Of a DNA stretch of 64,000 nucleotides, positions 2,559 through 64,000 are shown piece by piece (position 1 is the first letter of the stretch; each line of letters opens with the position of its first letter). A program made the position numbers and the translations under genes. The notes beneath the pieces were generated by a model. That model was given only the letters and a program-made list of their open reading frames with translations, made no database searches and was not told the origin of the DNA. Where the stretch lies: positions 5,558 through 69,557 of IMG/VR virus record IMGVR_UViG_3300042402_003062; one strand, given 5' to 3'. Source of the stretch: a virus.

Positions 2559-2561
2559 TTA

Positions 2562-3344: not shown

Positions 3345-3355
3345 CACAGTATCTC

Positions 3356-3742: not shown

Positions 3743-3743
3743 C

Positions 3744-3899: not shown

Positions 3900-3901
3900 A
3901 G

Positions 3902-4087
3902 TTAGTCCGCCCTTTCCACAAAGAATTTACCGTACATAGCCCAAGGCGCACGACCAGACCACAATGACCGCAACTCGCGGGTGACTGTGGCCTCTGAGCC
4001 TAAGCAGGCGCACTTAACGATTGACCGGGCCGCCTCCCTAATACTCTCGTACTCTACACCATTAACCTTCATTCTCTTCTTCTTCAT
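3902..4087 (-). CDS. small NUMOD1-like DNA-binding protein
   Basis: VNGVEYESIREAARSI helix-turn-helix motif. Confidence 0.5.
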   Translation of the reverse strand: MKKKRMKVNGVEYESIREAARSIVKCACLGSEATVTRELRSLWSGRAPWAMYGKFFVERAD

Positions 4088-4114
4088 TACATACCTTTGG
4101 TAATATCATTGGTC

Positions 4115-4141
4115 CTATTGTACTTTAGGTAACCTTAATCT
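4115..4141 (-). promoter_or_regulatory. putative sigma70-type late promoter
   Basis: Minus strand AGATTAAGG-N10-TACAATAG, upstream of the terminase operon. Confidence 0.6.
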
Positions 4142-4276
4142 AACATGAGGGGGTACGTATGGTTAATTTTTAAATTTTCGGGGAGGTTGGCAATATCACC
4201 ACCCAGCCCAGCCACAACCCGGACCCCCCCCGTACTTCCAACTGCTCCAGACAAATAACCTTACAAAACCCCAAGG

Positions 4277-4355
4277 CTTTTACAGTCTATCGGTGACTTC
4301 GGTCAAGTTGTGTTAGTTGTTGCTGTTTTTGGTCCGTACCTTCTACAGTCTATTG
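4277..4355 (+). repeat. two copies of a CTTYTACRGTYTAT(TG) motif (candidate phage promoter)
   Basis: Copies at 4277-4290 and 4340-4355; further copies at 5175-5190 and 6977-6992. Confidence 0.55.
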
Positions 4356-4406
4356 TTCTCCATTATTGTGTCCGCGAACGACCTTAAACTAAGTAAAGGA
4401 TTAATT

Positions 4407-4706
4407 ATGTTAAAGAAACAAGAAGGCCTCTTGGGCACAACCAGTACTACCGTTATCGTTGGCTTCAATGCAGTACAGTCTGTTGTGAAAGCCGGTGCTA
4501 AAGTAATGGACGCTTTGGATATTAACTCAATGACTAACCTCGTTGAGACTGCATCAGACGCAATTGATGTGGCTATGTCTAATATGCACTCCATCCTTGA
4601 GGATACTGCGACTACCACAGACCCTGTTATGCTAGAGTTCCTTGCTATCAAGCAAAACTTGTGGTTGGGGTCAGCTAAGTACGCGTCTAAGATTGCGTCT
4701 AAGTAA
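4407..4706 (+). CDS. hypothetical early protein
   Basis: ATG at 4407 after AAGGA; first plus-strand gene. Confidence 0.7.
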   Translation: MLKKQEGLLGTTSTTVIVGFNAVQSVVKAGAKVMDALDINSMTNLVETASDAIDVAMSNMHSILEDTATTTDPVMLEFLAIKQNLWLGSAKYASKIASK

Positions 4707-4781
4707 TAACCTCTTACTGTGTGTTGGTGCCTTCGGGCTAACTCTCTGGGCCCATGCGGGCTCTACTATAAGGATTTAATT

Positions 4782-5102
4782 ATGAAAAAGCTTACTCTTA
4801 CCGAAACCCAAGTCTCTGAAGTTCTCAACAAACTTACTCCATCGTGGGTTGGTTGTATTAACGCAGTAGATTTAGAGCGTGCTCAAGTTGCGAAGTCTCA
4901 AACCCGTAATTGGTTGTTCGGGACTATCATCAACCAAAAGTTTATTAAGTTAAACAAAAACTTTGCTACCTTTAAGGCAGGGGAGTTGGTGTCTATCGCC
5001 GACATATATGATACCGATTCAGCCCAGTCTTTGGCCGGTCTCATCATATACCGACTAGCCCACTCAGGCTTAGTCAAAGCACCAAGTATCGTTGGTGTTT
5101 AA
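4782..5102 (+). CDS. hypothetical early protein
   Basis: ATG at 4782 after TAAGGA. Confidence 0.7.
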   Translation: MKKLTLTETQVSEVLNKLTPSWVGCINAVDLERAQVAKSQTRNWLFGTIINQKFIKLNKNFATFKAGELVSIADIYDTDSAQSLAGLIIYRLAHSGLVKAPSIVGV

Positions 5103-5134
5103 CAAGCTCTTCGGAGTTTGTTTACCTTTTTTTT
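5101..5134 (+). terminator. rho-independent terminator
   Basis: AACAAGCTC-TTCG-GAGTTTGTT hairpin (UUCG loop) followed by a T run. Confidence 0.8.
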
Positions 5135-5218
5135 ATCACATCTCACTTCGCAGACTGTTTAATAAATCTTTATACTTTTACAGTTTATTGATTATTTTTA
5201 TTGTTCGGTGGACTCAGG

Positions 5219-50440: not shown

Positions 50441-53400
50441 TTATTCAATTACTGCTCGCACCAAGCCACCTTCAAACAGTGTGCCAAATATATTTTCCGG
50501 TCGAGTCCATAGACTTGTTTTATGTGACAACGTTCCGATCGGATCAAAAAACTGATCTAATGGTGTTTCTACATTGATACCAGTCAAACTTTGAGCTGTT
50601 TCAGTCATCGCTACTGTCAAACCTTTCGTTGCAACCATTCTAGCCATAGCAGGTAAAATCCTGAAGAAGTATTTAGTAAACACCAATCCCCCCATATCAT
50701 TGGCGTATTTTATGTACTTATTATCCAAATATCCATAGTTTACATGTAACCCATCCATATGACTTAACCAACTCTTTGGAATATCTCCGCTCTTGAAAAA
50801 TACCTCCATCTCCTTCTCTGTTGCACCAAACAACAACTCCCCAATTACCTGATTACTTTCACCTCTATTTCTTAGCTTTACTGCTTGCTCCTTTGCGTCC
50901 ATCAGTATTATCATTTTGTTAATCGCATCTGAATACGTAGTTGCTTTCATAATTGAATCATGTATCGCAGTATCTTTTCGTAAATAAATTACATCTACTA
51001 CTGACTTCAGTATATTTCTACCCCGCTTATCCTCCGCTTTTTTAAGCATCTCATTTATTTTACCTTCAATAATCCCCTCTTTATCAAAGTAAGACGTATT
51101 TAAGTCTTCAAATATTACATTGTACTGTCCATCTTCAACTATCACATGCACTGGGTTTGCACGCATACTAGCGTCTAACGCAGCAATTCTTCTGTCCAAC
51201 CCTTTCTCACCAGCTCTGCGTTTCAGATCCAGGTCAATACGTTCTCTACGGAGCTTTTGGTAGTCATTCATCATACCCCAAACTTGTCGATACTTATTCA
51301 TGTACGTCAACGGATTTTTAAACGATGTGTACTGCAGCGCAATGAACATATTGGATATATTATTACCAACTACTGTTGATCCTGTAAACGCTACTATCTG
51401 TAATTTCCAGTTACGCAACAACTCCATTACAATCTGCTCAAATTTCTTCGCAACCAGTTGTCGTTTTTTACTATCTCGTATCCACGGTGCATTGATTATA
51501 CTCGCATCGTGATACCCAAAAAAGTCCGTTAACATCGTTTCTGTAACCATTAGTGGTTCTTTTTTCTTGTTAATTTCAGATTTTATGTAGTACGGAAGCA
51601 TGTCCCAATACTCTTTGAATTTGCCTTCACTTCTTGGCCCAATTTCCACAAACTTGTGCTCTGCATCTGTTTTATACATCTGGTGGAATCTTTTCAAATA
51701 CGCTAATGATGCATAATTACTCAACATAGCTTGTTGCTTATGTGTTAAGTTTGCCACAGTTGCCGCAACAGTCGCAATTATGTCATTATCCATTTCCATC
51801 AGCAATGTTTTATCAGCATGCGCCACTCGGATTCTATAGTCATATATCTCACCCATTCCGCTACGTTCTGGGACCAATGAGCTCTTCGCGCCACCTTTGC
51901 GTTTGCGTAACATCTCGAGTCTGACGTCTACATCTTCCTCCGTGTATTCTGTCAATTTCATCAACATACTTTTAAGGCTATCCCCTTCATTGGATAGTTG
52001 TACTACTTTAAGGAGTCCTTCACTATATTTTGTATCCAGACTATCACCAATCATCACGTATATTGGTTGCCCAGCAATTTCACTTAACTCTTGGTCTTTA
52101 CCCAAGTTATGTATTTTTGCTTTGCTTAATGCTTTCATCTCTGCTTCGCCCACCAAGTATCGTTTTCTGTCTTTGGTGTAGTACTCTTGCTTTGCACCTT
52201 TTGTCACATATAACTTGTTCCCTTTATATGCTTTTTCAAGGATCATTGCTTGTTCCTCACGAACTAATTCCATAGCAGCATCAAGTCCCTTTGGGTTCTG
52301 CTCTAGTGCTTGCAGTGCTCCGGCTCGTTCTTCAGCACTAAGCTTTTGCAATGCTCGTAGTGTAATAGCTTTGTCAATATTAGCTATTGTTTCTTTAGTG
52401 GAATTTGCTGTTCGCTCAAACGCTATTTGATGTGCATTGGTATACACATTTGCTGAGTTACTGTAGTTATTAACTAGTAACTCTGCCGTATTATCAATAT
52501 CTAGTATCACCGTAGGGCTTAATCCTGCAGTTGACTCATTTAGCTCTCGCTCAATCTTTGCGTCATCCCGTAAATATTCTGCTATCGCAGCACTGTCCCC
52601 AAGCATTTGTGCATCTGCATCTATCAGCACGCGTTTAGCAGCCTCTCTAGCCCCTTTCTGAACTTTACCCAATCCATATACCTCATCCAGGTTTTTGGCT
52701 GTCCTCTGGCGTATCGCAACAACTTCCTTCTCTACAAACTCTTTACTATGTCGAAACATTTCGTAGAATTTTGCAATATCCGGGTTTTTCATATTTTTTG
52801 CAAGACTGCTGAACACATTGTTTTGTAGGGCAAAACTTCTGGCTTTCGCCAATGCTTTAATATTCCACAACTTTGCAACAATCTGTTTAGCCTTACCACG
52901 TTTTGTATTTTCGATCATTTCTTGATATGTTTTGTACTCACCATCAATCTCTTCAGTTATCTTTGCAATTTTTGAATCTGTACGAGCAATGGTATCAAGT
53001 AGTTTTTCATAGCTACTTCGATCCTCTAATCGCTGCACTCTATGTTCCACTTCAAGTAACTTGTGCACCATACTTACAGCATGTTCATGTGCACTCTTTC
53101 CATCAAGCATTATGTCAGCATAAGCCTTATTCACCAAAGCTACCAATTGATTCCATAGTTTTGCCCACATACGCCCTTTTTCTTCAATAGGGCTCAGCAA
53201 CTCCAGCTTTTCTGTAGTACTGATGCCAATTAGTCCACGTACTAAGGCCTGATTAGTTGTTGCATGTGCTAAGAACTCATCAATCGGCCAATCTTTATTG
53301 TTGAATGCATAGTTCCACTGTCCAACAGCTTCATCAATTTGTGTTTGTGTAGGAGTTTCTATCCCCTCAAGGAATACTTTGTACCCTGCTCCATCATACT

Positions 53401-54208
53401 TTTTGTTTAGCTCTGCTTTCATAGCAGTACGGAACTGATCTGCTTTATAGGCCAAGACATCATTATTCTTAATCGCATTTTTCATAAGTACGTGTTGCAT
53501 TTCTTCAGCAAGAATTTCAGTATGTGTACGAAGTCTTGTATTACCTATCATCAGACGAATCTTGCCATTTTGTGGATTAGCATCACCGAATGCTTTAGTC
53601 GATTCATCCAACGCTTTGAAGAATTCTACATTCAGATCAATATCTTTTCCGGCTTCTTGCAGGACCCCCTCATACATCTTGAAAATGTTTCCTAAGTAAT
53701 CTTTGAACTCTGGGGATAATTTATCCCCGTCTAAGGCATGCACATCAGCAATTAGGGTATCCATGTTTTCCAGCAATGTACCACTAATTTCATTCACCTT
53801 CAGCTTGGCTTTAAATTCTGTCCCTTCTTTGGCACTACCAAGGACTTTCTTTTCCAATATTACATAGTGCGATCCATCAGTTGTTACACCATCTTTTAGG
53901 TTAATTTTATATGCTCCACCATTAATTGTCACAACATCTTCTGATACTGCAGAAGCATTACGCACTGTCACAAATTTTGCGGTGTATCCATCAATTGTTT
54001 GGATCATTAATCGTTGCCCAACCAATTTTTGGCTATGGTCTATAAACGAATGAATTCTTTGTGATGGCGCAAAATACTTCCCAGTTTTACGCTTACGCCC
54101 CTCTGCTTCAGCCATTCGTTTACCGTAATTTGCTCGATCAACTACTCTGTCCAAGTAGCTTATATCATCATTATCTTTGATCAATTCATTTAGTGCAGCA
54201 CATTCCAT
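50441..54208 (-). CDS. virion protein equivalent to the C-terminal part of N4 vRNAP (part C)
   Basis: Degenerate zincin EILAEEMQH...DEFLAHATTN, plus FFGYHDASI and VNY...YANDMG..FTKYFFRI, resembling the vRNAP C terminus. The only Cys is residue 3. Confidence 0.7.
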   Translation of the reverse strand: MECAALNELIKDNDDISYLDRVVDRANYGKRMAEAEGRKRKTGKYFAPSQRIHSFIDHSQKLVGQRLMIQTIDGYTAKFVTVRNASAVSEDVVTINGGAYKINLKDGVTTDGSHYVILEKKVLGSAKEGTEFKAKLKVNEISGTLLENMDTLIADVHALDGDKLSPEFKDYLGNIFKMYEGVLQEAGKDIDLNVEFFKALDESTKAFGDANPQNGKIRLMIGNTRLRTHTEILAEEMQHVLMKNAIKNNDVLAYKADQFRTAMKAELNKKYDGAGYKVFLEGIETPTQTQIDEAVGQWNYAFNNKDWPIDEFLAHATTNQALVRGLIGISTTEKLELLSPIEEKGRMWAKLWNQLVALVNKAYADIMLDGKSAHEHAVSMVHKLLEVEHRVQRLEDRSSYEKLLDTIARTDSKIAKITEEIDGEYKTYQEMIENTKRGKAKQIVAKLWNIKALAKARSFALQNNVFSSLAKNMKNPDIAKFYEMFRHSKEFVEKEVVAIRQRTAKNLDEVYGLGKVQKGAREAAKRVLIDADAQMLGDSAAIAEYLRDDAKIERELNESTAGLSPTVILDIDNTAELLVNNYSNSANVYTNAHQIAFERTANSTKETIANIDKAITLRALQKLSAEERAGALQALEQNPKGLDAAMELVREEQAMILEKAYKGNKLYVTKGAKQEYYTKDRKRYLVGEAEMKALSKAKIHNLGKDQELSEIAGQPIYVMIGDSLDTKYSEGLLKVVQLSNEGDSLKSMLMKLTEYTEEDVDVRLEMLRKRKGGAKSSLVPERSGMGEIYDYRIRVAHADKTLLMEMDNDIIATVAATVANLTHKQQAMLSNYASLAYLKRFHQMYKTDAEHKFVEIGPRSEGKFKEYWDMLPYYIKSEINKKKEPLMVTETMLTDFFGYHDASIINAPWIRDSKKRQLVAKKFEQIVMELLRNWKLQIVAFTGSTVVGNNISNMFIALQYTSFKNPLTYMNKYRQVWGMMNDYQKLRRERIDLDLKRRAGEKGLDRRIAALDASMRANPVHVIVEDGQYNVIFEDLNTSYFDKEGIIEGKINEMLKKAEDKRGRNILKSVVDVIYLRKDTAIHDSIMKATTYSDAINKMIILMDAKEQAVKLRNRGESNQVIGELLFGATEKEMEVFFKSGDIPKSWLSHMDGLHVNYGYLDNKYIKYANDMGGLVFTKYFFRILPAMARMVATKGLTVAMTETAQSLTGINVETPLDQFFDPIGTLSHKTSLWTRPENIFGTLFEGGLVRAVIE

Positions 54209-54223
54209 TTAACAGCCTTCTTT
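54200..54223 (-). repeat. gene-junction motif, copy 2 (KEGC*MEC)
   Basis: AAA GAA GGC TGT TAA ATG GAA TGT; 21 of 24 nt identical to 56834-56857. Confidence 0.9.
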
Positions 54224-56842
54224 GAGCAATTTTTGCACGGCTTCATTCTCCGTACGTTCTCGGTCTTTGAGGTGAATTGTACCCATGTTTTGTTTAGCTT
54301 TGGCTTCCGTAACCATCTGATCTTTTACTTGAACATCAGACATCACAGTTTTAGTAAGTGCATCAAATGCTTCTTTATTTGCTATACCTATACCAAACTT
54401 AGTACCCTTTACAGCAAAGCTTATATGTGGGTATGGATATGGGAATTTAGTTCCTAGCTCTTTGTTCACTGCGTCAATTAGGGCATTTACCCCAGGAGCA
54501 TCTACTAACTGAATCATAGCCTCTTCATGTACCATATGTTTACCTAAGTCTTGATTGGCCCAATCTTTAAACATTTCTATATCTCGCTCTATTTTGTATA
54601 CTTCAGGACGCTCTGTATAGCTTAAGTCTGCTTTCTCTATAAGCTTTTGCACTATTCCAGCCTTTTTTGGGTCCTCTTCAAATATTTTCTGCAATTGCTT
54701 ACCTTCAGGAAAACCCCACACTGTTAAGTGGGTCTCTTCTTTTGGAGTAAATCCAGCAGGAATATCTTTAGCAGCAGAAGGGATTTTTACTTTTATCAAC
54801 AAGGATTTAGACTTTGGACTAAATCGTGGGCCTTCTGCTTTTTTCTCAATTGCTTTCACTAGCTCATAAATTTTATCAGCGTAGACTTGACCTTCTACAC
54901 CAAACAATACTTGTTTAATTTTGTCAATCACACGTTGTAGCAAACTACGCATATCATTTCCAATTAACTTCTCTAACTCTACCTTTACATCTGGCTCAGC
55001 CATTAGAACCGCTACATTTTCTTGCAACAATCCTAACTCACCATTTTTACTATCCCAAGTTAATCGCTCGTTAAGCATATACACATCTATGCCTTCTACT
55101 CCACCACGCACTACCTTATCAAGTTTGCTACGTACTTGAGCCATCATCTTGCCAAGTCGTACCACATCTGTATCCTTTTGATTCGACTCCAGCCAACGAG
55201 CTGTTTTATCATGCGCTATCTCATGGGCCAAGTATACAGCACGTTCTCCGGCTGTTGCATCTTTGTCAAGTGTTATCGTACCATCACTCCAGTGGAACAT
55301 ATTCCCTTCTTCTACTGTCACATCTGGATTTTCCGTTAGATATGCTTTGTTATTAGCTTCTATTACAGCAATCTCTTCTTCAGTTATATTTTGCTCAAAT
55401 GTTTCACCTGCCCCAAGAGCCATTTCATAATTACTAGTAGCTGCTTGCGATGCTTCTTGGGCAATTGCAGCAATTTCAGCTCTTGTCATTGACATTAGCT
55501 TTTGTAACAATTCCTTTTCTACTTTAGTTACCTTTTTAGAATCAAATGTTAATGTTTTTTTCACGACGCGTTTTAATGAGTTTAGCTCTATCTTATTTTT
55601 AAGCAGTTGCTGCCAAAATTCTCCAGACTCACTAACTACCGCTCTATCTCGATTTCTTTTAAATGGAGTACCATCTGCATTTACTTCTCCATAAGATTTG
55701 TCAATTACATAGCTCCACTCGGCTTCGTATTCTTCTAGCATCTTCTCTAGATCACTAACTTTTAATTTAGTATTGTCCCCAGCAAATACTTCCATAATTG
55801 GACCTGTAGCTAGAATAGGTTCTACTTCAACTATACTAACAGGAGTTTCAGAAGTGCTTCTTTCTTTTTGTAACTTATCTCTAATCTGCATCAATAATTC
55901 TGGAAATTTATCTTTCCATATTTTATCTGCCACATTATGAGTTAAGTCTGCAGTTCCTGTACTAAGTAATAACTTGGTTGCTTCAGGATTTTGTTCAAAT
56001 GAACGCAACATTATTGCAGGCATAAGTGTTTTAGTATTCCAGTTATTTATAGTTTTAGTACCTTTAGTACCTCGTGCAACTAATCCACCGTTGTTCCAAT
56101 TTTTATTATATACATCCTCTTCAAGTCCAGTCCCACTCTTTAGTGACTGATAGGCATGCTCTACACTCTGAAATGTGCGACCTTGCATAGTAAATGGACG
56201 AACTGCTAAGTTACTTAACTCTTCATACCCATTTTTATCTTTTGAGTACACATTAATAGATTCTACTGGGGCTACTGAAGGCTCTACAACAGTCTGAGGC
56301 ACTATCTTTAGTGCACCAATTTTATCTTTATTCTGATTTATCGCATAAAGCAATACTAGGGCATGGGATAATGGTTGCCCTACAGCAGTTCCTTTATAGT
56401 ATAACTTTTTCTTACCATCCAGAACGGCTCTAATCTGTGGTATAGCTCGGAATGTTTTCTGCCTAGCCTCTTCCAAGGCTGTTAAGTCCCCGGTGTAGCT
56501 AGCAGGTACAATATTCCGTACCAACCAATCATAGTACATAGCCGATAGATCTCCATCGGATTTAGTATTAACATTAGTACGTTCAAATGGATTTCCAAAG
56601 AATGAGTTTGGCCCGCGCATTCCCCACACATCATTTGTTGCTTTTTTAGGTCCACCTACAATCATCTCTGCGTATGGAGCCACAGCTTTTGTTAATGCCT
56701 CAATCATCGCCGAATACGATTTATCTTTGATAATTTTTGGAAAGCTATTATCTTTAATTTCTTGGACACGTTTTTGTATCTCAGGGTACGCTTCCAATGC
56801 TAGGATCAATTTATCCACATACTCAGGTATTCTGCATGCCAT
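54209..56842 (-). CDS. polyvalent virion protein (part B): DUF4326-like, NADAR, zincin and 2H phosphoesterase domains
   Basis: RGPNSFFGNPF; LSNL...FQSVEHAYQ...LLSTG...LLMQIR; HEIAH; HLT...HIS. Cys only at residues 3 and 877. Confidence 0.7.
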   Translation of the reverse strand: MACRIPEYVDKLILALEAYPEIQKRVQEIKDNSFPKIIKDKSYSAMIEALTKAVAPYAEMIVGGPKKATNDVWGMRGPNSFFGNPFERTNVNTKSDGDLSAMYYDWLVRNIVPASYTGDLTALEEARQKTFRAIPQIRAVLDGKKKLYYKGTAVGQPLSHALVLLYAINQNKDKIGALKIVPQTVVEPSVAPVESINVYSKDKNGYEELSNLAVRPFTMQGRTFQSVEHAYQSLKSGTGLEEDVYNKNWNNGGLVARGTKGTKTINNWNTKTLMPAIMLRSFEQNPEATKLLLSTGTADLTHNVADKIWKDKFPELLMQIRDKLQKERSTSETPVSIVEVEPILATGPIMEVFAGDNTKLKVSDLEKMLEEYEAEWSYVIDKSYGEVNADGTPFKRNRDRAVVSESGEFWQQLLKNKIELNSLKRVVKKTLTFDSKKVTKVEKELLQKLMSMTRAEIAAIAQEASQAATSNYEMALGAGETFEQNITEEEIAVIEANNKAYLTENPDVTVEEGNMFHWSDGTITLDKDATAGERAVYLAHEIAHDKTARWLESNQKDTDVVRLGKMMAQVRSKLDKVVRGGVEGIDVYMLNERLTWDSKNGELGLLQENVAVLMAEPDVKVELEKLIGNDMRSLLQRVIDKIKQVLFGVEGQVYADKIYELVKAIEKKAEGPRFSPKSKSLLIKVKIPSAAKDIPAGFTPKEETHLTVWGFPEGKQLQKIFEEDPKKAGIVQKLIEKADLSYTERPEVYKIERDIEMFKDWANQDLGKHMVHEEAMIQLVDAPGVNALIDAVNKELGTKFPYPYPHISFAVKGTKFGIGIANKEAFDALTKTVMSDVQVKDQMVTEAKAKQNMGTIHLKDRERTENEAVQKLLKEGC

Positions 56843-56857
56843 TTAACAACCTTCTTT
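56834..56857 (-). repeat. gene-junction motif, copy 1 (KEGC*MAC)
   Basis: AAA GAA GGT TGT TAA ATG GCA TGC. Confidence 0.9.
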
Positions 56858-59800
56858 TAAATTCTCAAACATATCTTTAAATAGTGTTTTACCTATAGTA
56901 GTGCCAGTCATTTCGCTAGCAACTTGCTCCATTATTTTTCTAGGCCCTTTATCTCCACTTGTGAATAGATCAATAGCAAGAGCTCTAATTTCTTTAGCCA
57001 TTTTAGCACCATCTTGCTTAACAGGAGCCTCCGTAGCAACTTCCTGCACAATACCAGCTCTTACGCTATCTACTAGCCATTCAAGCCCTTCTAGCACAGC
57101 AGTATCAGCTCCTTCTTCAGCAAATACTGCGTATCGTTTATCAACTAACTCTTCTGTAGTCTTACCTTTAGCTTCATAACCTTTAATGTCTCCGGCAGCA
57201 GCGTATTGATTGACTACCAATTCTTGCTCAACCAAGTCACGTCTAGCAGTGTCTATGCTCCGTAGGGTATGAATCACATCTCCTACCAAGTCTAATACTG
57301 ACTCACCTTCTTCTACCGGTCCAAGTATACGCTCAAGGTCACCAAGTACTTGTGAAGCCATTTCAGGATCCATTTCCAAGCCTTCTCGTTTACCAAGCAT
57401 GAACTCCATTTTTTCAACGGCTTTTCCAAGCATACTATGTGTCATATTAATATCGTAGAACGACTCATTCATTTTTTGGAGTTGTTTTGTGTTCTTTGTT
57501 AAATCTGTACCCATCATCAGTGCATCATAGATATTCAATACAGCCATTACATGCCCTGTTATCATAACTGACCCATCCGCAGCATGTACTGTTGTTACAC
57601 CAATTGCTCCAACGTTAGCAACCAGCTCTTTGATTGCTTGATTATAATTTCTTGAGTACCCTGTTCCACTTTGGAAGGTGCTTGTGTTAATTGTTACGGA
57701 AATCTGGTTGGACTCACCTTCCTTATTCTCTGTTTTCCAATAATCTACCAAACCGCCTTCAATCGCTGCTTCAGTAGCGTAATAGGTACCTTCTGAAAGC
57801 ATCTCTGACTTAATATCAGTTAGCTCTGCAATTGTAAGTTCACCCATTACTCCTTTTACAGAAGTTTCTCTTCCAGCAAGTTTATCCTTCACTTTTTTGT
57901 TAAAGTTCATTTTAAAGATTGTATAGTTAACTTCTTCTACAGTTTGGAGCGCTTTTCTAAACTCAATAACCGGTCCAAATGTTGATTTGAAGCTCTCTGC
58001 AAACAAATCTCCAAGCTTTTCATCAATTGCTTTAGTAAGTAGTCCTACTTGATACTCACTCAAGTACGCATATAGCTTTTTCTCATCATCGTTTAACTCA
58101 TCTTCATTGAGTTTTGTAGATATAAGCTCACCATCTTTTATAGCGTATTTCACATACGTTGGTTTAATATCTTTTAATCCAGAAATTTCTAGCAAAGTTT
58201 CTAATTTACCTCTTGCCAATCCACCAGGAATATAGCTATTACCAACAATCAGTGACTGCGCCATTGCTTCAGTAATGTTCTTAAGCCCTGCACCATATAT
58301 AAAGATCATTACTGGGTTTTTCATGAAATTTCTCCATGCCCCACCAATAACATCATCGATTTGTGCATGAGCTTTTTTGTCAAGCAGTGTGTTTAGAATT
58401 TTTAAAGGCGCTTCATAAATATCTTTACCTTTATTTTCTTTGAATTCTCCGTGACTTGCGATATTGCTATCTCCGCCGTATACACCAGCTCGTCCTAACA
58501 TTCCTTCGGTAAATTTTGTCCAACCCATTTGCATCAGGGTAAACGCCATACCATTTGTAATACCATCTCCCTCAAGCGCTAGATTAGTTATGATTGTTTC
58601 ATCACCAGCACGGATCTTACGAAGTAATTCTACCGCTTGTACAACGTGTAGTAATGTTTTACTATCATCATGAAGTTGTGACACAGCACTTGGGTCAGTG
58701 TTTTCAAAGAGTACCCCATTCATCTCTCGAACTGATCCAAGATTAAACTCAGCATCATTCACAAGCCCTTGTAGTCGTTCGTTTTTACCCCATTTTAGAG
58801 TAAGTCCTTCAGGCCCTTTTACAATATGTACATACTTATTGCGTAGCTCTGTCAGCGCAGACTCAGGCTTTAATTTATCAATACCGATACCCATTGCTTG
58901 AGCAATTGCCAGTTCAATATGTTCTAGCTCTGCTTGGGTCACTTCTTTAGTATCAATAGTGTTCATCATATCTTCAGCTGCTACTAAAAACCGGCTAATA
59001 CCACTTGCTTGTGGATTAACAAGTTTATTAGTCATCATACTGCGCCCACTTAACGTATAATCCCAGCCTAAATAGAATTTCTGTCCATCACCAACCAGTG
59101 CATGTGCTTGGAGCATTCGCTCAATTATTAGCTCCTCTGCTTTATACTTAGCAAGTTTACTTTCCATATCCATAGCTTGTGTGCTAGCTATTAACTCTTC
59201 TAAGCTACCTAGCAATTGTTCTTTGATAATTTCCACATAATCACTACCATCTTCTGTAGTAGACATATTTTGTGCTGCATGTATATACTCTTCAAGCCCA
59301 ACAAACTCCCAAGATTGTTCTCCTTGTCTATCCAAGTAGTTTTTAGCAGGTGTTGCCAACGGTACATCGCTATTTCTAATCGTTGCATCAGCTTTCTTCT
59401 TAGCAATCGGGGTTAAGCTTATATCTCCTTCCTCTCTTGCTGTTGCAAACTCAAACACAGTACCCATCTCACCAACTTCTCGCATATAGTCTTTGCTGAG
59501 CGTTTCCAGATTCATTACACGTATACTTTTTGACTTACTTACATCTTCATCTTTTACAGCAATATGCTCATAGACAAGTTTATCATTTTTGACAAATACA
59601 ACACCTCTGCGAACAGTGTCTACATCTTTTGCTCTTTTTGGAAGTATGTTATTAATCACCAATACACCAAGAGCCATCTCTATATCCGGACGTTGTTGTA
59701 CCGTCAATTTTTTGCTCAGTTTCAGCTCTAACTCACGTAGCAGCAATCTACCAGCATTTGCACGGAACACAGCTTCAGGAACATACTTCCCACCACGTAC

Positions 59801-62800
59801 TGCCTTTTTAACGGCAGTCTTACCAACGCGAATGTTCAACTCATCATCAAACTCACCCCATAATGTTGTAAACCCATTATCTACAATATCATTCATTAAA
59901 TCATTGGTAGTTACACGCATATCAATCATTTCTTTTAGCGTGACTGCACTAGCTAGATTCATTGCTGTTTTCACAGTTGCTCGGACACCATCTTTAAGCA
60001 CTTTATACGCAGGATCTGTCAGTTCTTTAGGTTCAATTTCCCATAAATTTTCAAGAGCCACTCCACCAATTTTGATGTCTCGCAACGGATTTGTGTTATC
60101 ACCATCTTTTTGTTTTGGAAACCACTGAGCGAACCCTTCAGCTGTGCGTGCTTCAGCAAATTTCTTAAATGATCTTAAGGCACTTTCCACCATAATCTTG
60201 CCAGACTCTTTGACTTTTAGCATATTTGGCATAATGTCCATCACAGCATCAATTCCAATATCTTGTTTTAGACCAAGCATTGCACTCAAACTTTGGGTTA
60301 ATTTATTGTTAGGCTCTACAAAGTCTCCAAGCACCTCTTCCATCGGCCCACGAACTTCTTTAGCCTCATCTATCTTTTGTTGCTTTTTAGCCTTTTTAAC
60401 AGCCTGTATAGCCTCTACCTTAGCTTGTTCAGTCTTTCTGATAATACTCCCAAGCTCCATTATCTGTACACGTAAGTTATCAATCTCTTCCATCGTTTCA
60501 GTAGCAGCATCTTCTAACTTAACAATTTGTTTGTATAGTTTTGTCACAACACCTTTTAGGGATCGAATGGTGTTACGAACTTGCCCTAACAATTTTTTAA
60601 ACTCTAACTCTACTCCAGATCTCCAGTCTAGTCGATTAGCACGGAATTCTTCTTTAGCTAATCGGATATTTACAGCATGCAGTTTTGTACGCGCTTCTTT
60701 AATAGCTCTGTAGTACTCACCTTGTAACTTGAATAACACTGGAAGTTTTGATTTTTTACTTTGTATCAAAGCTTCTGTTTCACTAAGTTTATTTTCCAAC
60801 CAGATAACGTATCGTTTAGCCTTTTTAACTGCCTCTGAATCAGTTGAGTCATTAATCTCTGCTTGAGTAGGCAGTGTAGGCTCTTCATACTCTGGCTCAG
60901 CACCTTCTTTTGCAAGTTTGTACTCAGATTGTCCCTCATCACTTGTTTTAAACGCAGGAGTGGTATTAACTGGACTCACAGGAGCAGCTGGCACAACATT
61001 TGATACAGGAAGTTTAGGTTTCTTAGGTTGTTTCTTTGGAGTTTCTTTAACTACTAACAAATTACCCTCTGCATCATACATAGCATCTGGAGTATTATCT
61101 TCAATAGTTGGAGCTCTACTTGTATCCCAATCAGTACGTTCATCTAGCATCGCATCAATTACTTCTGGAGATAAGTTATTACCACGAGTTTTTTGTAACT
61201 CATGATATACACTTCTTCGAACCACAGGATCTTTTGAATTTGCTCTATCTAGCATACTTTCATGTGCAAGTTGAGAACTCCATAACTTTTCAGCCATTGC
61301 TTCAAATACCGATTTTAATGCATTACCATCTTCAAGAGTCGCTAATTTAGCGTTTATAATATCTAGCAGCTGTGCATTTTCGTACATCTTATCTACCAAA
61401 CGCCCTTTAATACCAGCGAGTCGAAATAAGTTTTTTGTACCTTTTTCATCTACTGAGTACCCAAGCACTTTTTCAATTCCACGATGAGCCACAAATTCTT
61501 GTAAATCTTCAATAGCTTTTGTCTCATCTGCTAATGGCATACCAGTACCAACAAAGGTTTCAATAGCTTCTGCATGTTCTGGAATACTCTTTTTATACTC
61601 ACCAGAATCAAGTAAGAATCCAGTCTTAGCAATCTCTGCTGTTACATCCGCAGCTGTCTTTTTACGCTTTTGTGGACCTGTTGGTGGTGCACCTTCACTT
61701 GACCCAAGTCTATTTCCTTCTGCACGCATTGCCTCTAGAGCCGATTCAATCGCACCTAGTTTTGTAGCAATCCCTGACTCTGCACTTCCCATAACTTTAA
61801 TATCTTTAATCGCCTCAACCAATGAGCTATACTGCTCCTCGCTAAGCGTTGCTATTTTAGCCATCAAGGAATTTTCTACAACAGGGTCCATATTGTACTT
61901 AGCAAGGAACTCTTTAGCTCTATCATTACTCGCCATAGAATCGAACATGGCTTTGATCTCTTCTTTTTGAGATTCAACAAATGCTAGTTCTGCCGCTCTG
62001 TTGCCTTTAGCCACTTCAACCATCTGCGCATTGATCTCTTTACGTTGTTCAGGAGTAAATTTATTTCCACCAACATCTAAGTTATGTGCTTTTGAGTAGT
62101 TTACAATCTTTTTAATAAGCATATACTCAGCAACTTGCTTCGCTTCTGGGGTAAGCCCATACACTTGAGCAATTTTATTGGTACCATCTCTGAATATATC
62201 TTCTACATTCTTTTTACCAGTCAAGGCATCTGTTTCTTTACCCATGTACCCATATTTCACTCGTGCTTCTGGGGAGAACACCAAATCAATTACAAATTCA
62301 GCAATTGTTTCACCGTATACTTCTCGTGATTTTGGATCAGTTCCAACTGAAAAGTCAGGACTTCCGACACTAGCCCACATATTTGCTTTACCATCCATGC
62401 CTAGTGGTTTTTGCACCATGTCAGGATCTGAAGTAGCGGCGCTATTCAATGCAATCTTTTCTTTTAAGTATTGCCCAGCAGGAGCAAGTAGTGTACCTAC
62501 AGCACGTGGACTTGCCATGTATCCGCCACCAGCTGCTCCTAGTAGGGTCCCGCCAATAATTGCAGATGACTCAGCATCAAGCAATTGCTTGATTGTCATA
62601 TCTTTGTACTTATCACTACCATATTTAGTATTTATTACATTAAATATTGCATCTGTACCTTCTTGTAATGACTCAACTCCCATACTTTTTGCCATCTCTG
62701 CGCCAGTTAATCCTACAGCTGTCATAAATCCTCGCGCAATCTCTTCTTTAGGCAACGCATTAGGCCCAAATGCCACACGTTTCGCAGAATAAATCTCAGC

Positions 62801-63970
62801 AATAGAAAGAGCTCGGTCAGCTAGCAAAATACTTGCTAACTTAGGAAGGTCTATCTCTCCTCCATTATTTTCTTTGTACGCTGTAATATGTTCATTTGCT
62901 CTATTAGCAAAATCTGCATTACTGAAGGTTGTTCCTTTTAGATAATGCGCCATTCGTACTGCAGGAGTTTGCATAGCCTCAAGCTTAGCGAGTCGTTCCG
63001 CCTTTACAGCAGGACTTAAGCTGCTTCTTTGCACTTGTATCATCATGTCATCAATTTTAGTATTCGTGCTTTTTAATGCTCCATTGATTGCACTTTCAGC
63101 AGCAGGTGCACTTTTCGCAAAAGTTCGTCCAGCAACTTGAGCTGCTACTTTTGTACCAATTTTTGTTACAGCTCCTAAACCTCCACCAGCACCAGCTATC
63201 TCAGCCATTCCATGCGCTATTAGGGACGGGTTTTTTGCCATTGTCAGCAAAGAATCTTGTCCGTCTTCAGTAGTAAATAATTTGTGCCATGTGGTTAGGT
63301 CTAGCAATTTTACTCCAGCATCAGTAATGCCTTGTTCAACACGTTTTTGATCGGCAGCATCAGCAGATGCGTTGTACCCAAATATGGTATCAGTACCACT
63401 AATTATTTGCTCTTTTAACTTATCATCAAACAAGTCAATATCAACTTTTTTACCAGTAATTTTATTATACGCTACCTGTGGAACATACGTAGCAAGCTCT
63501 TGGGCTGCATCAACTAACTTTACAGCTCCACCAACTGCACCACTTGCTGCTCCAGATAGTGTTTGCTGTATTTCATCAGCGGCTCTGCTGAGGAACCCAG
63601 GGTCATACTTATTGTTCTTTGGAGCGTCTTTGATCATTTTCATCATTGCTTTATTAGCAGGCTTACCAACTTCAGATACACCCAAGTATGATGTAGCATC
63701 ACCACCTTTATAGACCTCAGTACCTCGGAGCATTCCTTTTGGCTGTACTAAGTATGCTCTGTTTTTCAATGCATCTACATTACCATGTAGCGCCGCTTCA
63801 ACAGCAATTGCGTCATCTTTAAGTAGGTACATTGCCATCAGATTTGGGTCTCTGGTAGGATCCATTTGAACCTTACCTTTTTCCGTAGCAGTTTTACCAA
63901 AGTGCTTATAATTCTGTTTTACCACATCTACAGCACTAGCACCATCTCCGTAGTTGGACACATACCCCAT
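56843..63970 (-). CDS. virion-encapsidated RNA polymerase, N4 vRNAP-like (part A)
   Basis: TLSGR...NPQ, motif A EGDGITNG, motif B RNFMKNPVMIFIYGAG, motif C IYDA. 2375 aa; the only Cys is the last residue. Confidence 0.9.
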   Translation of the reverse strand: MGYVSNYGDGASAVDVVKQNYKHFGKTATEKGKVQMDPTRDPNLMAMYLLKDDAIAVEAALHGNVDALKNRAYLVQPKGMLRGTEVYKGGDATSYLGVSEVGKPANKAMMKMIKDAPKNNKYDPGFLSRAADEIQQTLSGAASGAVGGAVKLVDAAQELATYVPQVAYNKITGKKVDIDLFDDKLKEQIISGTDTIFGYNASADAADQKRVEQGITDAGVKLLDLTTWHKLFTTEDGQDSLLTMAKNPSLIAHGMAEIAGAGGGLGAVTKIGTKVAAQVAGRTFAKSAPAAESAINGALKSTNTKIDDMMIQVQRSSLSPAVKAERLAKLEAMQTPAVRMAHYLKGTTFSNADFANRANEHITAYKENNGGEIDLPKLASILLADRALSIAEIYSAKRVAFGPNALPKEEIARGFMTAVGLTGAEMAKSMGVESLQEGTDAIFNVINTKYGSDKYKDMTIKQLLDAESSAIIGGTLLGAAGGGYMASPRAVGTLLAPAGQYLKEKIALNSAATSDPDMVQKPLGMDGKANMWASVGSPDFSVGTDPKSREVYGETIAEFVIDLVFSPEARVKYGYMGKETDALTGKKNVEDIFRDGTNKIAQVYGLTPEAKQVAEYMLIKKIVNYSKAHNLDVGGNKFTPEQRKEINAQMVEVAKGNRAAELAFVESQKEEIKAMFDSMASNDRAKEFLAKYNMDPVVENSLMAKIATLSEEQYSSLVEAIKDIKVMGSAESGIATKLGAIESALEAMRAEGNRLGSSEGAPPTGPQKRKKTAADVTAEIAKTGFLLDSGEYKKSIPEHAEAIETFVGTGMPLADETKAIEDLQEFVAHRGIEKVLGYSVDEKGTKNLFRLAGIKGRLVDKMYENAQLLDIINAKLATLEDGNALKSVFEAMAEKLWSSQLAHESMLDRANSKDPVVRRSVYHELQKTRGNNLSPEVIDAMLDERTDWDTSRAPTIEDNTPDAMYDAEGNLLVVKETPKKQPKKPKLPVSNVVPAAPVSPVNTTPAFKTSDEGQSEYKLAKEGAEPEYEEPTLPTQAEINDSTDSEAVKKAKRYVIWLENKLSETEALIQSKKSKLPVLFKLQGEYYRAIKEARTKLHAVNIRLAKEEFRANRLDWRSGVELEFKKLLGQVRNTIRSLKGVVTKLYKQIVKLEDAATETMEEIDNLRVQIMELGSIIRKTEQAKVEAIQAVKKAKKQQKIDEAKEVRGPMEEVLGDFVEPNNKLTQSLSAMLGLKQDIGIDAVMDIMPNMLKVKESGKIMVESALRSFKKFAEARTAEGFAQWFPKQKDGDNTNPLRDIKIGGVALENLWEIEPKELTDPAYKVLKDGVRATVKTAMNLASAVTLKEMIDMRVTTNDLMNDIVDNGFTTLWGEFDDELNIRVGKTAVKKAVRGGKYVPEAVFRANAGRLLLRELELKLSKKLTVQQRPDIEMALGVLVINNILPKRAKDVDTVRRGVVFVKNDKLVYEHIAVKDEDVSKSKSIRVMNLETLSKDYMREVGEMGTVFEFATAREEGDISLTPIAKKKADATIRNSDVPLATPAKNYLDRQGEQSWEFVGLEEYIHAAQNMSTTEDGSDYVEIIKEQLLGSLEELIASTQAMDMESKLAKYKAEELIIERMLQAHALVGDGQKFYLGWDYTLSGRSMMTNKLVNPQASGISRFLVAAEDMMNTIDTKEVTQAELEHIELAIAQAMGIGIDKLKPESALTELRNKYVHIVKGPEGLTLKWGKNERLQGLVNDAEFNLGSVREMNGVLFENTDPSAVSQLHDDSKTLLHVVQAVELLRKIRAGDETIITNLALEGDGITNGMAFTLMQMGWTKFTEGMLGRAGVYGGDSNIASHGEFKENKGKDIYEAPLKILNTLLDKKAHAQIDDVIGGAWRNFMKNPVMIFIYGAGLKNITEAMAQSLIVGNSYIPGGLARGKLETLLEISGLKDIKPTYVKYAIKDGELISTKLNEDELNDDEKKLYAYLSEYQVGLLTKAIDEKLGDLFAESFKSTFGPVIEFRKALQTVEEVNYTIFKMNFNKKVKDKLAGRETSVKGVMGELTIAELTDIKSEMLSEGTYYATEAAIEGGLVDYWKTENKEGESNQISVTINTSTFQSGTGYSRNYNQAIKELVANVGAIGVTTVHAADGSVMITGHVMAVLNIYDALMMGTDLTKNTKQLQKMNESFYDINMTHSMLGKAVEKMEFMLGKREGLEMDPEMASQVLGDLERILGPVEEGESVLDLVGDVIHTLRSIDTARRDLVEQELVVNQYAAAGDIKGYEAKGKTTEELVDKRYAVFAEEGADTAVLEGLEWLVDSVRAGIVQEVATEAPVKQDGAKMAKEIRALAIDLFTSGDKGPRKIMEQVASEMTGTTIGKTLFKDMFENLKEGC

Positions 63971-64000
63971 TTTAGTATTACCGTCTTGTGCTTTACCGGA

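What the first reader, a model, noticed from the sequence alone, without database searches (positions are those of the whole stretch)
50441..63970. Virion RNA polymerase split into three ORFs with cysteines only at the junctions: candidate disulfide-linked ejection chain
Seen: three abutting ORFs in the same frame (2375, 877 and 1255 aa), each separated only by TAA-ATG. Both junctions read LKEGC*M(A/E)C and share 21 of 24 nt (56834-56857 and 54200-54223). Reading all three translations by eye, I find four Cys in 4507 aa: the last residue of A, residue 3 of B, the last residue of B and residue 3 of C. The free ends (A N terminus, C C terminus) have none. The three differing nucleotides preserve both Cys and the Gly. 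Known: N4 vRNAP is a single ~3500 aa Cys-free polypeptide injected with the DNA; A matches its N-terminal and polymerase regions and C matches its C-terminal region. Inference: the chains are rejoined head-to-tail by disulfides (or a Cys-metal clasp), so they are packaged and ejected as one chain and then released by reduction in the host cytoplasm. This would be a standardized, redox-cleavable connector that lets modules be inserted. The KEG codons also supply a GAAGG RBS for translational coupling, but that does not explain the Cys. I know of no description of this arrangement.
Basis: partly seen in the sequence, partly recalled or inferred. Interest (0 to 1): 0.93.

Follow-up and report, generated by a model that had tools for sequence, protein, structure and literature searches.

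The report
Cysteine-tipped pieces of split virion polymerase
This marine N4-like phage makes its giant injected RNA polymerase as three proteins whose only cysteines sit at the ends that face each other, a rule kept at nearly every such gene split in relatives, so the pieces are most likely tied end to end by disulfide bonds inside the virus particle.

Summary
On the minus strand, ORFs A (56843-63970, still open at the window end), B (877 aa) and C (1255 aa) abut as TAA-ATG. They carry 4 Cys in 4507 aa, all at the two junctions; the rest of the phage proteome has 1.14% Cys. A is cut by the contig end, so its N terminus is not visible here.

The pattern is a family rule. Of 37 adjacent junctions in 26 split vRNAP loci, including cultured Alteromonas phage AD45-P1, 36 have a Cys on both sides, 1 has none and 0 have only one. 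These fragments hold 4 other Cys in 99,641 residues. One-piece relatives, N4 gp50 included, have none.

Splits fall at the two flexible linkers of N4 vRNAP, and middle modules carry a Cys at both ends.

A solved virion gives a precedent. Cyanophage A4 gp27 (only Cys 1715 of 1717) is disulfide-bonded to Cys5 of gp26, the product of the next gene.

Best reading, 0.7: end-to-end disulfides rejoin the pieces in the virion. Threading as one chain and release by cytoplasmic reduction are inferred.

My paper searches found no description for split vRNAPs. This scan has noted the same rule before on other DNA (49 notes in at least 45 genomes).

The parts
56843..64000 (-). ORF A: N-terminal region plus RNA polymerase domain of the split virion RNA polymerase. 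It is 5'-truncated by the contig end. Its only Cys is the last residue.
   Evidence: PHROG 2206 'virion RNA polymerase' E 1e-38, A 992-2331 to profile 803-2023.
56978..60997 (-). RNAP-domain homology region of A (residues 992-2331, counted from the ATG at 63970).
   Evidence: N4 gp50 25-3499 maps to profile 5-3405, which puts the end of A at about the N4 RNAP-CTD linker (2102-2123; PMC13434306).
56834..56857 (-). Junction A|B: ..KEGC, TAA, ATG, MAC. The Cys codons are 56846-56848 (TGT, last residue of A) and 56834-56836 (TGC, B residue 3). AAAGAAGG serves as the ribosome-binding site for B.
54209..56842 (-). ORF B: 877-aa middle module with Cys only at residue 3 and at the last residue.
55916..56242 (-). 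NADAR-like domain of B (residues 201-309), below Pfam's cut-off.
   Evidence: PF08719 E 1.1e-5, 26.2 bits against a cut-off of 35.1. phrog_1017 and phrog_652, both of unknown function. Atlas structural neighbours are NADAR clusters (the model has low confidence).
55211..55225 (-). HEIAH (HExxH) motif of B, residues 540-544. It probably corresponds to the C1 subdomain motif that N4 carries at residue 2228.
   Evidence: L002 B 474-587 aligns to unsplit vRNAP L008 2198-2330 at E 0.001, which is weak. N4 C1 HExxH: PMC13434306.
54323..54835 (-). B residues 670-840: possible 2H-phosphoesterase-like domain. This is a lead only.
   Evidence: An Atlas model neighbour has TM 0.83 by the row, in a cluster where 11% of members carry PF22547 2H-SAK. 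The query model has mean pLDDT 0.53.
54212..54283 (-). Conserved C-terminal tail of B (GTIHLKDR, then about 12 residues, then LKEGC). It is shared by the B modules of L002 and L003, which are otherwise about 30% identical over the last 130 residues.
54200..54223 (-). Junction B|C: ..KEGC, TAA, ATG, MEC. The Cys codons are 54212-54214 (TGT, last residue of B) and 54200-54202 (TGT, C residue 3).
50441..54208 (-). ORF C: C-terminal domain (CTD) of the virion RNA polymerase. Its only Cys is residue 3.
   Evidence: PHROG 2206 E 8e-56, C 220-1218 to profile 2335-3371. A profile of C homologues hits N4 gp50 2714-3451 at E 8.4e-39.
53492..53506 (-). EEMQH in C (residues 235-239): a degenerate HExxH. 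The first His is Glu in the window clade, whose B modules carry an intact HExxH.

Best explanation
The locus encodes an N4-type virion RNA polymerase that is cut at the flexible RNAP-CTD linker into A (N-terminal region plus polymerase) and C (C-terminal domain). An extra module, B, is inserted between them.

Each cut is flanked by one Cys: at the very end of the upstream chain and at residue 3 of the downstream chain. Everything else is kept Cys-free.

The most likely mechanism has four steps.
1. The three chains are made in equal amounts by translational coupling.
2. They associate non-covalently and are packaged.
3. In the oxidising world outside the cell, each facing Cys pair closes into an inter-chain disulfide, giving one A-S-S-B-S-S-C thread.
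4. Because the bond sits within a few residues of both ends, the joined chain stays nearly linear. It can pass the narrow tail channel unfolded, as proposed for one-piece N4 vRNAP, and non-covalent contacts would not survive that unfolding.

Reduction in the host cytoplasm would then free the modules.

Shown here: the Cys pattern, its conservation, its co-variation with splitting, and its position at domain linkers. Shown elsewhere: such a disulfide in the cyanophage A4 virion. Inferred: disulfide formation in this phage, threading as one chain, and reductive release.
For: 1. Window: 4 Cys in 4507 aa, all at the two junctions, against 1.14% Cys in the rest of the proteome.

2. Junction tally: in 26 split loci (window, 24 IMG/VR contigs, Alteromonas phage AD45-P1) there are 37 adjacent junctions. 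36 have both Cys, 1 has neither and 0 have only one. The upstream Cys lies 0-4 residues from the C terminus. The downstream Cys is at position 3 (32 junctions) or 4 (4 junctions). The fragments hold 4 non-terminal Cys in 99,641 residues.

3. Upstream side: 15 of 15 database homologues of the A C-terminal region have a Cys within the last 3 residues and none inside. The two that also have Cys4 are middle pieces.

4. Downstream side: 17 of 17 full-length C homologues have Cys at position 3 or 4. Among the 150 best CTD representatives:
- 76 of 89 proteins of 1000-1999 aa have a Cys in the first 7 residues, 75 of them with no other Cys;
- 18 of 30 proteins of 2000-3199 aa do;
- 1 of 20 proteins of 3200 aa or more does, and 18 of those 20 have no Cys at all.

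5. One-piece vRNAPs have no Cys: N4 gp50, 3500 aa; L008; L026, L029, L031, L036 and L038. L007, whose frame runs off the locus end, has none in the 3438 residues visible.

6. Two frame breaks in genes whose ends match one-piece relatives (L037 against L029, L042 against L026) have no Cys at the break. They serve as natural negative controls.

7. On a CTD tree, split and whole forms need at least 10 changes, of which at least 5 are forced by well-supported branches. One example is the sister pair P0146 (3287 aa, no Cys) and P0148 (2401 aa, MANC).

8. Splits lie at both N4 inter-domain linkers. L027 and L033 are NTD|RNAP|CTD, with Cys pairs at both cuts (linkers from PMC13434306).

9. Precedent: the cryo-EM structure of cyanophage A4 shows a disulfide between Cys1715 of gp27 and Cys5 of gp26 (PMC12002296). 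In GenBank KF356198, gp27 (1717 aa) and gp26 (1114 aa) are consecutive genes and each has exactly that one Cys.

10. Control ORFs of the same contigs: 22 of 436 have a Cys in the first 7 residues and 42 of 436 in the last 5. These counts still include the B modules.
Against: - There is no direct evidence of a disulfide in any split vRNAP. The AltAD45 paper reports two separate bands of 270 and 175 kDa (PMC3821669), with gel conditions not given in the passages I read.
- Assembly takes place in a reducing cytoplasm, so the bond must form late, and nothing here shows how.
- With three chains, correct pairing (A to B, B to C) needs docking specificity that I could not demonstrate.
- The phylogenetically independent-pairs test is weak. 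Of 10 pairs, the N-terminal Cys goes the expected way in 4-5, never the other way, and does not differ in 5-6 (median p 0.06). The tree is a FastTree tree with long-branch warnings.
- 13 of 89 CTD representatives of 1000-1999 aa lack an N-terminal Cys. Many sit inside clades of one-piece forms and may be truncated gene calls. One small clade (P0052, P0057, P0064) remains unexplained.
- Three N-Cys fragments (L035, L040, L041) have no adjacent partner.
- One junction (L021) has no Cys on either side, so a split can exist without the pair.
Confidence: 0.7

Rival explanations
1. The same disulfides form but act only as static staples. They hold the packaged pieces in a fixed assembly inside the capsid, as in the A4 pre-ejectosome. 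The chains are ejected separately or after the bond is broken, and there is no tow-rope function.
For: In A4 the bond stabilises a docked helix-in-cleft contact in an ordered pre-ejectosome (PMC12002296). The conserved tail of B suggests docking. In N4 the RNAP and CTD form a tight non-covalent complex (PMC13434306).
Against: The extreme terminal placement of both Cys (0-4 residues from the C terminus, position 3-4 from the N terminus) is what a threadable link needs and is not required for a staple. The cuts fall in linkers that are flexible in N4. N4 vRNAP appears loosely folded or unfolded in the virion (PMC13434306).
Confidence: 0.15
2. The facing thiols bind a metal ion (a Cys-metal-Cys clasp, or a four-Cys site built from all junction ends) instead of forming a disulfide.
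For: The window has exactly four Cys, enough for one tetrahedral site. Metal clasps between chains exist in other systems (general knowledge).
Against: Two-piece systems have only two Cys (L005, AD45-P1, L013 and others). No CxxC, and no conserved His or Asp, lies next to the Cys. The solved analogue shows a disulfide.
Confidence: 0.06
3. Each terminal Cys works on its own and the two do not pair. Examples are lipid or other covalent attachment for membrane anchoring, a bond to another virion component, or a redox sensor.
For: N4 vRNAP associates with the membrane (PMC13434306). Many downstream pieces begin MGC, MAC or MSC.
Against: Strict co-occurrence: 0 of 37 junctions have a Cys on one side only, and the single exception lacks both. 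The first fragment never has an N-terminal Cys and the last never has a C-terminal one.
Confidence: 0.05
4. The Cys codons are a by-product of nucleotide signals for translational coupling. Alternatively, the stops are read through or are sequencing errors, so that one polypeptide is made.
For: The last codons of each upstream gene hold the ribosome-binding site of the next gene, and the two window junctions share 21 of 24 nt.
Against: Both TGT and TGC are used at the window's and relatives' junctions. Spacers range from -11 to +26 nt, the stops are TAA 27, TAG 8 and TGA 2, and the downstream frame is 0, +1 or +2 in 8, 10 and 19 junctions, so read-through cannot make a fusion in most. In AD45-P1 the stop was re-sequenced and two polypeptides were seen on gels (PMC3821669). 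Accidental breaks lack the Cys.
Confidence: 0.03

Closest known systems
Cyanopodophage A4 / Anabaena phage A-4L ejection proteins gp27 and gp26 (cryo-EM, PNAS 2025, PMC12002296; GenBank KF356198)
   Same: These are two giant ejection proteins encoded by consecutive genes. The upstream one has its only Cys 2 residues from the C terminus (1715 of 1717). The downstream one has its only Cys at residue 5. The disulfide between them is seen in the virion.
   Different: They do not match the vRNAP family; the PHROG hits are phrog_33290 and phrog_19395. The phage belongs to a different family. In the passages I read, the bond is described as stabilising an ordered pre-ejectosome, not as a general rule or a rejoined split protein. 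There is no middle module with two Cys.
Coliphage N4 gp50 and other Schitoviridae virion RNA polymerases (for example Pseudomonas phage DEV gp71)
   Same: Homologous RNAP and C-terminal domains. They are Cys-free: N4 gp50 has 0 Cys in 3500 aa, and DEV-type homologues have 0.00075% Cys against 0.865% in the proteomes (PMC11445570). They are thought to be ejected unfolded as beads on a string (PMC13434306).
   Different: They are single polypeptides of about 3400-3500 aa with peptide linkers. Here there are three chains, the linkers are replaced by Cys-tipped ends, and an extra module is inserted.
Alteromonas phages AltAD45-P1 to P4, split vRNAP ORF127/ORF126 (Bacteriophage 2013, PMC3821669; KF005317)
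   Same: A split at the RNAP-CTD boundary in a roughly 100-kb N4-related podovirus. In my reading of the record, a 2481-aa piece has its only Cys 2 residues from the end and a 1409-aa piece has its only Cys at residue 4. Both polypeptides were seen on gels.
   Different: It has two pieces and no middle module. The authors took the cysteines as a sign that the protein is not injected, and in the passages I read they did not note where the cysteines sit.

Membership tests
N4-type virion RNA polymerase (PHROG 2206; Schitoviridae gp50 family) | Homologous single-subunit RNAP domain | tested here: met
   A 992-2331 to profile 803-2023, E 1e-38. Negative results: single-sequence phmmer of A, B and C against N4 gp50 found nothing at E 1e-3, and my own profile of A homologues did not hit gp50.
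N4-type virion RNA polymerase (PHROG 2206; Schitoviridae gp50 family) | Homologous C-terminal (encapsidation) domain | tested here: met
   C 220-1218 to profile 2335-3371, E 8e-56. A profile of C homologues hits N4 gp50 2714-3451 at E 8.4e-39.
N4-type virion RNA polymerase (PHROG 2206; Schitoviridae gp50 family) | One polypeptide of about 3500 aa | tested here: not met
   Three ORFs separated by TAA. The same three-part layout occurs in L002-L004.
N4-type virion RNA polymerase (PHROG 2206; Schitoviridae gp50 family) | No cysteine at all | tested here: not met
   There are no internal Cys but four terminal ones. N4 gp50 has 0.
N4-type virion RNA polymerase (PHROG 2206; Schitoviridae gp50 family) | Packaged in the virion and ejected into the host | not testable with these tools
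   Relevant evidence is indirect: AD45-P1 pieces were identified on gels (PMC3821669).
Terminal-Cys, disulfide-coupled consecutive ejection proteins (A4 gp27-gp26 type) | Consecutive genes; the upstream product's only Cys lies within a few residues of its C terminus | tested here: met
   A and B end in Cys and have no internal Cys. 36 of 37 junctions in relatives follow the rule.
Terminal-Cys, disulfide-coupled consecutive ejection proteins (A4 gp27-gp26 type) | The downstream product's only N-terminal-side Cys lies within the first few residues | tested here: met
   B and C have Cys3. In relatives it is at position 3 (32 junctions) or 4 (4 junctions).
Terminal-Cys, disulfide-coupled consecutive ejection proteins (A4 gp27-gp26 type) | Disulfide observed in the virion | not testable with these tools
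   This needs non-reducing gels, cross-link mass spectrometry or cryo-EM.
Terminal-Cys, disulfide-coupled consecutive ejection proteins (A4 gp27-gp26 type) | Sequence homology to A4 gp27/gp26 | tested here: not met
   A4 gp27 and gp26 hit phrog_33290 and phrog_19395, not phrog_2206. The likeness is one of design, not descent.
Split intein / protein trans-splicing | Intein halves (tens of residues) after the upstream Cys and before the downstream Cys | tested here: not met
   Only 0-4 residues follow the upstream Cys and 2-3 precede the downstream one.
Zinc hook / CxxC metal clasp | Paired Cys (CxxC) on each chain | tested here: not met
   There is a single Cys per chain end.

The most novel reading that the evidence does not exclude
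Terminal cysteines may act as a general, modular coupling system for proteins that tailed phages inject. On this reading, any domain given a Cys at both ends can be clipped into the ejection train. The train passes the tail as one unfolded disulfide-linked polymer and is uncoupled by the reducing cytoplasm.

This would let phages shuffle injected payloads between the polymerase beads. Here the payload would be a NADAR-like, HExxH and possibly 2H-phosphoesterase module. Elsewhere it would be helicase or DprA-like domains.
Probability: 0.35. Interest if true: 0.9.

Novelty: new variant of a known kind. Interest (0 to 1): 0.8.

Why it matters
How a 3500-residue polymerase gets through a channel of about 35 Å is an open question for N4-like phages. 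Recent structures propose an unfolded 'beads on a string' passage.

Natural variants in which the string is cut and each cut is flanked by a Cys pair give a direct genetic and biochemical handle on that model. If only a covalent link lets the downstream pieces follow, the chain is indeed threaded.

The finding also corrects an earlier inference that cysteines in the split Alteromonas-phage polymerase mean it is not injected.

It further suggests how phages add injected counter-defence modules without disturbing the polymerase. It points to a simple, redox-releasable way to load foreign proteins into phage particles for delivery into laboratory bacteria.

Tried and rejected
- Structure prediction of a complex: C residues 1-340 (alignment A2) with the last 130 residues of B (alignment A6). 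Result: no verdict (score 0.02, mark 0.32; the partner's own fold was uncertain). This is not used as evidence either way.
- Mapping to N4 by sequence: single-sequence phmmer of A, B, C and relatives against N4 gp50 gave no hit at E 1e-3. A profile of A homologues against gp50 gave no hit. I mapped A through PHROG 2206 instead.
- GenBank phages: megablast of 53000-58000 found no match. tblastn of C and of P0018 found only relatives of about 21% identity.
- One very diverse alignment (A3, 55 rows) could not be used for a contig scan. I used two subclade alignments instead.
- B against C and against unsplit vRNAPs by BLASTP: the only hit at E 0.001 or better was L002 B 474-587 to L008 2198-2330, and it is treated as weak.
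- Rejected readings: split intein, CxxC clasp, read-through fusion and coupling by-product. The reasons are given under rivals and the membership test.
- The 21-of-24 nt junction similarity as proof that B was inserted by duplication of the junction is not supported beyond shared constraints.
- Supplementary files were not opened. The DEV paper's supplementary tables (which vRNAP homologues hold the rare Cys) and the A4 paper's SI figures could bear on the claims.
- For PMC11445570, PMC3821669, PMC13434306, PMC10654107, PMC10172136 and PMC12002296 I read only the passages returned by 'find'. For all other papers I saw search listings only.
- Not-in-print claim: the searches listed no paper whose title or abstract start describes terminal Cys pairs at split vRNAPs. 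Subscription journals are mostly outside that library.
Full report
**1. What is in the window**

The minus strand carries three abutting ORFs in one frame: 56843-63970, 54209-56842 and 50441-54208. Each boundary is TAA followed at once by ATG.

Translation gives ..NLKEGC*MACRIPE.. and ..LLKEGC*MECAALN... The two 24-nt junction stretches share 21 positions.

Cys occurs only at the last residue of A, at residue 3 and the last residue of B, and at residue 3 of C. That is 4 of 4507 residues. A rough gene set for the rest of the contig has 181 Cys in 15,918 residues, or 1.14%, so about 51 Cys would be expected.

The A frame is still open at base 64000 and the contig ends there. A is therefore 5'-truncated and its true N terminus is not in the window.

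**2. Identity of the three ORFs**

PHROG 2206 'virion RNA polymerase' matches two of them:
- A 992-2331 to profile 803-2023, E 1e-38;
- C 220-1218 to profile 2335-3371, E 8e-56.

N4 gp50 25-3499 spans profile 5-3405. A profile of C homologues hits gp50 2714-3451 at E 8.4e-39.

By these coordinates A ends, and C begins, near the N4 RNAP-CTD linker. That linker is residues 2102-2123 and is invisible in the 2026 N4 structure, which describes vRNAP as three globular units joined by flexible linkers (PMC13434306, passages).

B is extra. It has the following features:
- a weak NADAR-like match (PF08719, E 1.1e-5, below the cut-off);
- an HEIAH motif at residue 540;
- possibly a 2H-phosphoesterase-like end, from Atlas model neighbours of low confidence.

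Negative results: single-sequence phmmer against gp50 found nothing, and my own profile of A homologues did not hit gp50.

**3. Close relatives**

Two IMG/VR contigs (C 64% and 56% identical) have the same three-part layout. Their B modules are 661 and 430 aa. Their only Cys are at the end of A, at residue 3 and the end of B, and at residue 3 of C.

L004 has a 210-aa B module (MAC...KIC). L005 has no B at all: A ends ..IQC and C starts MVC.

Spacers differ between junctions (TAAATG, TAGTATG, TAATG), and both TGT and TGC are used. The constraint is therefore on the amino acid, not the nucleotides.

L008, a complete one-piece vRNAP of 3489 aa, has no Cys. L007, whose frame runs off the locus end, has none in the 3438 residues visible.

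**4. The wider family**

*Downstream side.* 17 of 17 full-length C homologues, down to 24% identity, have Cys at position 3 or 4. 15 of them have no other Cys. The eighteenth hit is a shortened gene call of the window's own C.

A profile search of 1.84 billion representatives gave 1233 hits. Among the best 150:

| Length class | With Cys in first 7 residues | Notes |
|---|---|---|
| 1000-1999 aa | 76 of 89 | 75 of them have no other Cys |
| 2000-3199 aa | 18 of 30 | |
| 3200 aa or more | 1 of 20 | 18 of 20 have no Cys at all |

*Upstream side.* 15 of 15 homologues of the A C-terminal region have a Cys within the last three residues and none inside. Two of them also have Cys4. These are middle pieces that carry a superfamily-1 helicase domain.

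**5. Junction tally**

Two further contig scans gave 35 loci, which I read ORF by ORF. tallies 26 split loci: the window, L002-L005, 20 of these 35, and Alteromonas phage AD45-P1.

- Of 37 adjacent junctions, 36 have both Cys, 1 has neither and 0 have one only.
- The upstream Cys lies 0, 1, 2, 3 or 4 residues from the end in 10, 8, 10, 7 and 1 junctions.
- The downstream Cys is at position 3 in 32 junctions and at position 4 in 4.
- Stop codons are TAA 27, TAG 8 and TGA 2.
- The downstream frame relative to the upstream one is 0, +1 or +2 in 8, 10 and 19 junctions.
- There are 4 non-terminal Cys in 99,641 residues.

Junctions left out of the tally:
- L006: both Cys are present, but only about 30 upstream codons are visible.
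- The first junction of L034: the upstream piece ends in Cys, a 600-nt gap follows, and the downstream start is ambiguous.

The other 15 of the 35 loci are:
- 5 complete one-piece genes with no Cys (L026, L029, L031, L036, L038);
- 3 5'-open frames with no Cys (L017, L025, L032);
- L023, 5'-open with 3 Cys, unclassified;
- L028, a small fragment;
- 2 broken genes whose ends match one-piece relatives and which have no Cys at the break (L037 against L029, L042 against L026);
- 3 N-Cys fragments without an adjacent partner (L035, L040, L041). In L041 a candidate partner whose only Cys is 4 residues from its end lies 2.8 kb upstream.

The single Cys-less junction, in L021, reads ..IDGA*MGSIITELN. 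It has Ser where B-like N termini of other loci have Cys, so both partners are missing together.

As a control, among 436 other ORFs of 100-999 aa on the same contigs, 22 have a Cys in the first 7 residues and 42 in the last 5. These counts still include the B modules.

**6. Where the cuts fall, and how often they arose**

L027 and L033 are three-part NTD|RNAP|CTD systems. Their middle pieces match profile positions 865-1916 and 764-2042, and their last pieces match from about 2239 or 2590. There is a Cys pair at both cuts. The cuts correspond to the two N4 linkers, 907-1007 and 2102-2123.

I built a FastTree tree of the conserved CTD region from 139 of the 150 representatives, dropping 11 that are shorter than 1000 aa. 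On it, split-with-N-Cys and whole-without-Cys need at least 10 changes. At least 5 are forced by starred branches, and the shuffled mean is 17.9.

The independent-pairs test is weaker. Of 10 pairs, the Cys goes the expected way in 4-5, never the opposite way, and shows no difference in 5-6 (median p 0.06). The tree carries long-branch warnings.

Most short, Cys-less rows sit inside clades of one-piece forms, as truncated calls would.

**7. What is in print**

The absence of Cys from N4 vRNAP and its homologues is known. It has been explained by passage through the oxidising periplasm (PMC11445570; PMC3821669). I confirmed 0 Cys in N4 gp50, gp51 and gp52.

The AltAD45 paper described a split vRNAP (2481 + 1404 aa), re-sequenced the stop and saw both polypeptides on gels. 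It took the cysteines as a sign that the protein is not injected. In the GenBank record the 2481-aa piece has one Cys, 2 residues from its end, and the next ORF (1409 aa in my reading) has one Cys at residue 4.

The closest precedent is the cryo-EM structure of cyanophage A4. There the C-terminal helix of ejection protein gp27 docks in gp26 and is fixed by a disulfide between Cys1715 and Cys5 (PMC12002296). In KF356198, gp27 (1717 aa) and gp26 (1114 aa) are consecutive genes and each has only that Cys. They are not vRNAP homologues by PHROG.

Six searches listed no paper whose title or abstract start states the rule for split vRNAPs.

**8. Mechanism**

Best reading (0.7): the facing Cys close into inter-chain disulfides once the virion is outside the cell, which restores one nearly linear chain.

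The rationale is inference. Unfolding during ejection would abolish non-covalent contacts between the pieces. In N4 the N-terminal domain is proposed to lead ejection (PMC13434306), and, from recalled earlier N4 work cited in PMC3821669, the C-terminal domain is needed for encapsidation. The pieces therefore depend on each other. A bond within a few residues of both ends keeps the chain threadable.

Release by cytoplasmic reduction is plausible but untested. The rivals (static staple only, metal clasp, independent roles for each Cys, coupling by-product or read-through) are listed with the evidence for and against each.

**9. Module B**

The B modules of the window, L002 and L003 share little beyond three elements:
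- an N-terminal MAC-helix;
- an HExxH region;
- a conserved tail (GTIHL[K/E]DR, about 12 residues, then LKE(G)C).

In this clade the C piece has EExxH where L004-L006 and more distant C pieces keep HExxH. The HExxH subdomain, called C1 in N4, seems to have moved to or been replaced in B. The only sequence link is weak (E 0.001).

Other middle or extended pieces carry NADAR (P0034, E 6.7e-20), helicase (P0175) or DprA-like (P0043, P0087) domains.

**10. Earlier notes of this scan**

After my own searches had reached the A4 paper, a look-up showed 49 earlier notes in at least 45 genomes with the same reading. They cover N4-like and crAss-like phages and name the same closest precedent. They agree with what I tested. 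I did not test the crAss claims.

**11. Verdict**

This is a new variant of a known kind. The known kinds are Cys-free injected vRNAP and the A4 terminal disulfide. New here are the rule that every evolved split of the vRNAP is flanked by a terminal Cys pair, and the middle modules tipped with a Cys at both ends.

Noticed in passing
window 55211-55225 (B) and 53492-53506 (C); L002-L006: The HExxH motif of the N4 C1 subdomain is intact in the B modules of the window, L002 and L003, while their C pieces have EExxH. L004, L005 and L006, whose B lacks HExxH or which have no B visible, keep HExxH in C. This looks like a hand-over of the motif between neighbouring modules.
   Followed up: partly
L021 1060-1150: This is the only junction without Cys: ..IDGA, TGA, then MGSIITELN, with Ser where B-like N termini elsewhere have Cys. 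Both partners of the pair are missing together. The upstream ORF is cut by the contig end.
   Followed up: partly
L037 (against L029) and L042 (against L026): These vRNAP genes are broken into two frames. Their outer ends match one-piece relatives and there is no Cys at the break. They are probably frameshifts, assembly errors or recent pseudogenes, and they are useful as negative controls.
   Followed up: partly
P0175, P0176 (database proteins); P0043, P0087; P0034: Cys-tipped vRNAP pieces carry extra domains. A superfamily-1 helicase (AAA_30, UvrD_C_2) sits at the end of a 2522-aa middle piece. DprA-like domains (phrog_768) and a strong NADAR domain lie in long N-terminal extensions of CTD pieces.
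   Followed up: partly
window 54323-54835: The Atlas model of B residues 670-840 resembles a small cluster in which some members carry the 2H-SAK family. Together with the NADAR-like domain this hints at an injected counter-defence payload. The model has low confidence.
   Followed up: no
L041 1-5954; L035; L040: In three loci the N-Cys-bearing polymerase piece is not preceded by its partner. In L041 a 1034-aa (5'-open) ORF whose only Cys is 4 residues from its end lies 2.8 kb upstream, with several small Cys-containing genes in between.
   Followed up: no
G000 contig 39-5140 (upstream of the window): Three further minus-strand ORFs of 207, 451 and 809 aa have no Cys at all. They may be other virion or ejection proteins. 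Their identity was not determined.
   Followed up: no
L047 (Anabaena phage A-4L) 16766-29652: In A-4L, gp29 (380 aa) has no Cys. gp28 (1058 aa) has only a Cys pair at 1036 and 1039, near its C terminus. Whether this also serves coupling is unknown.
   Followed up: no
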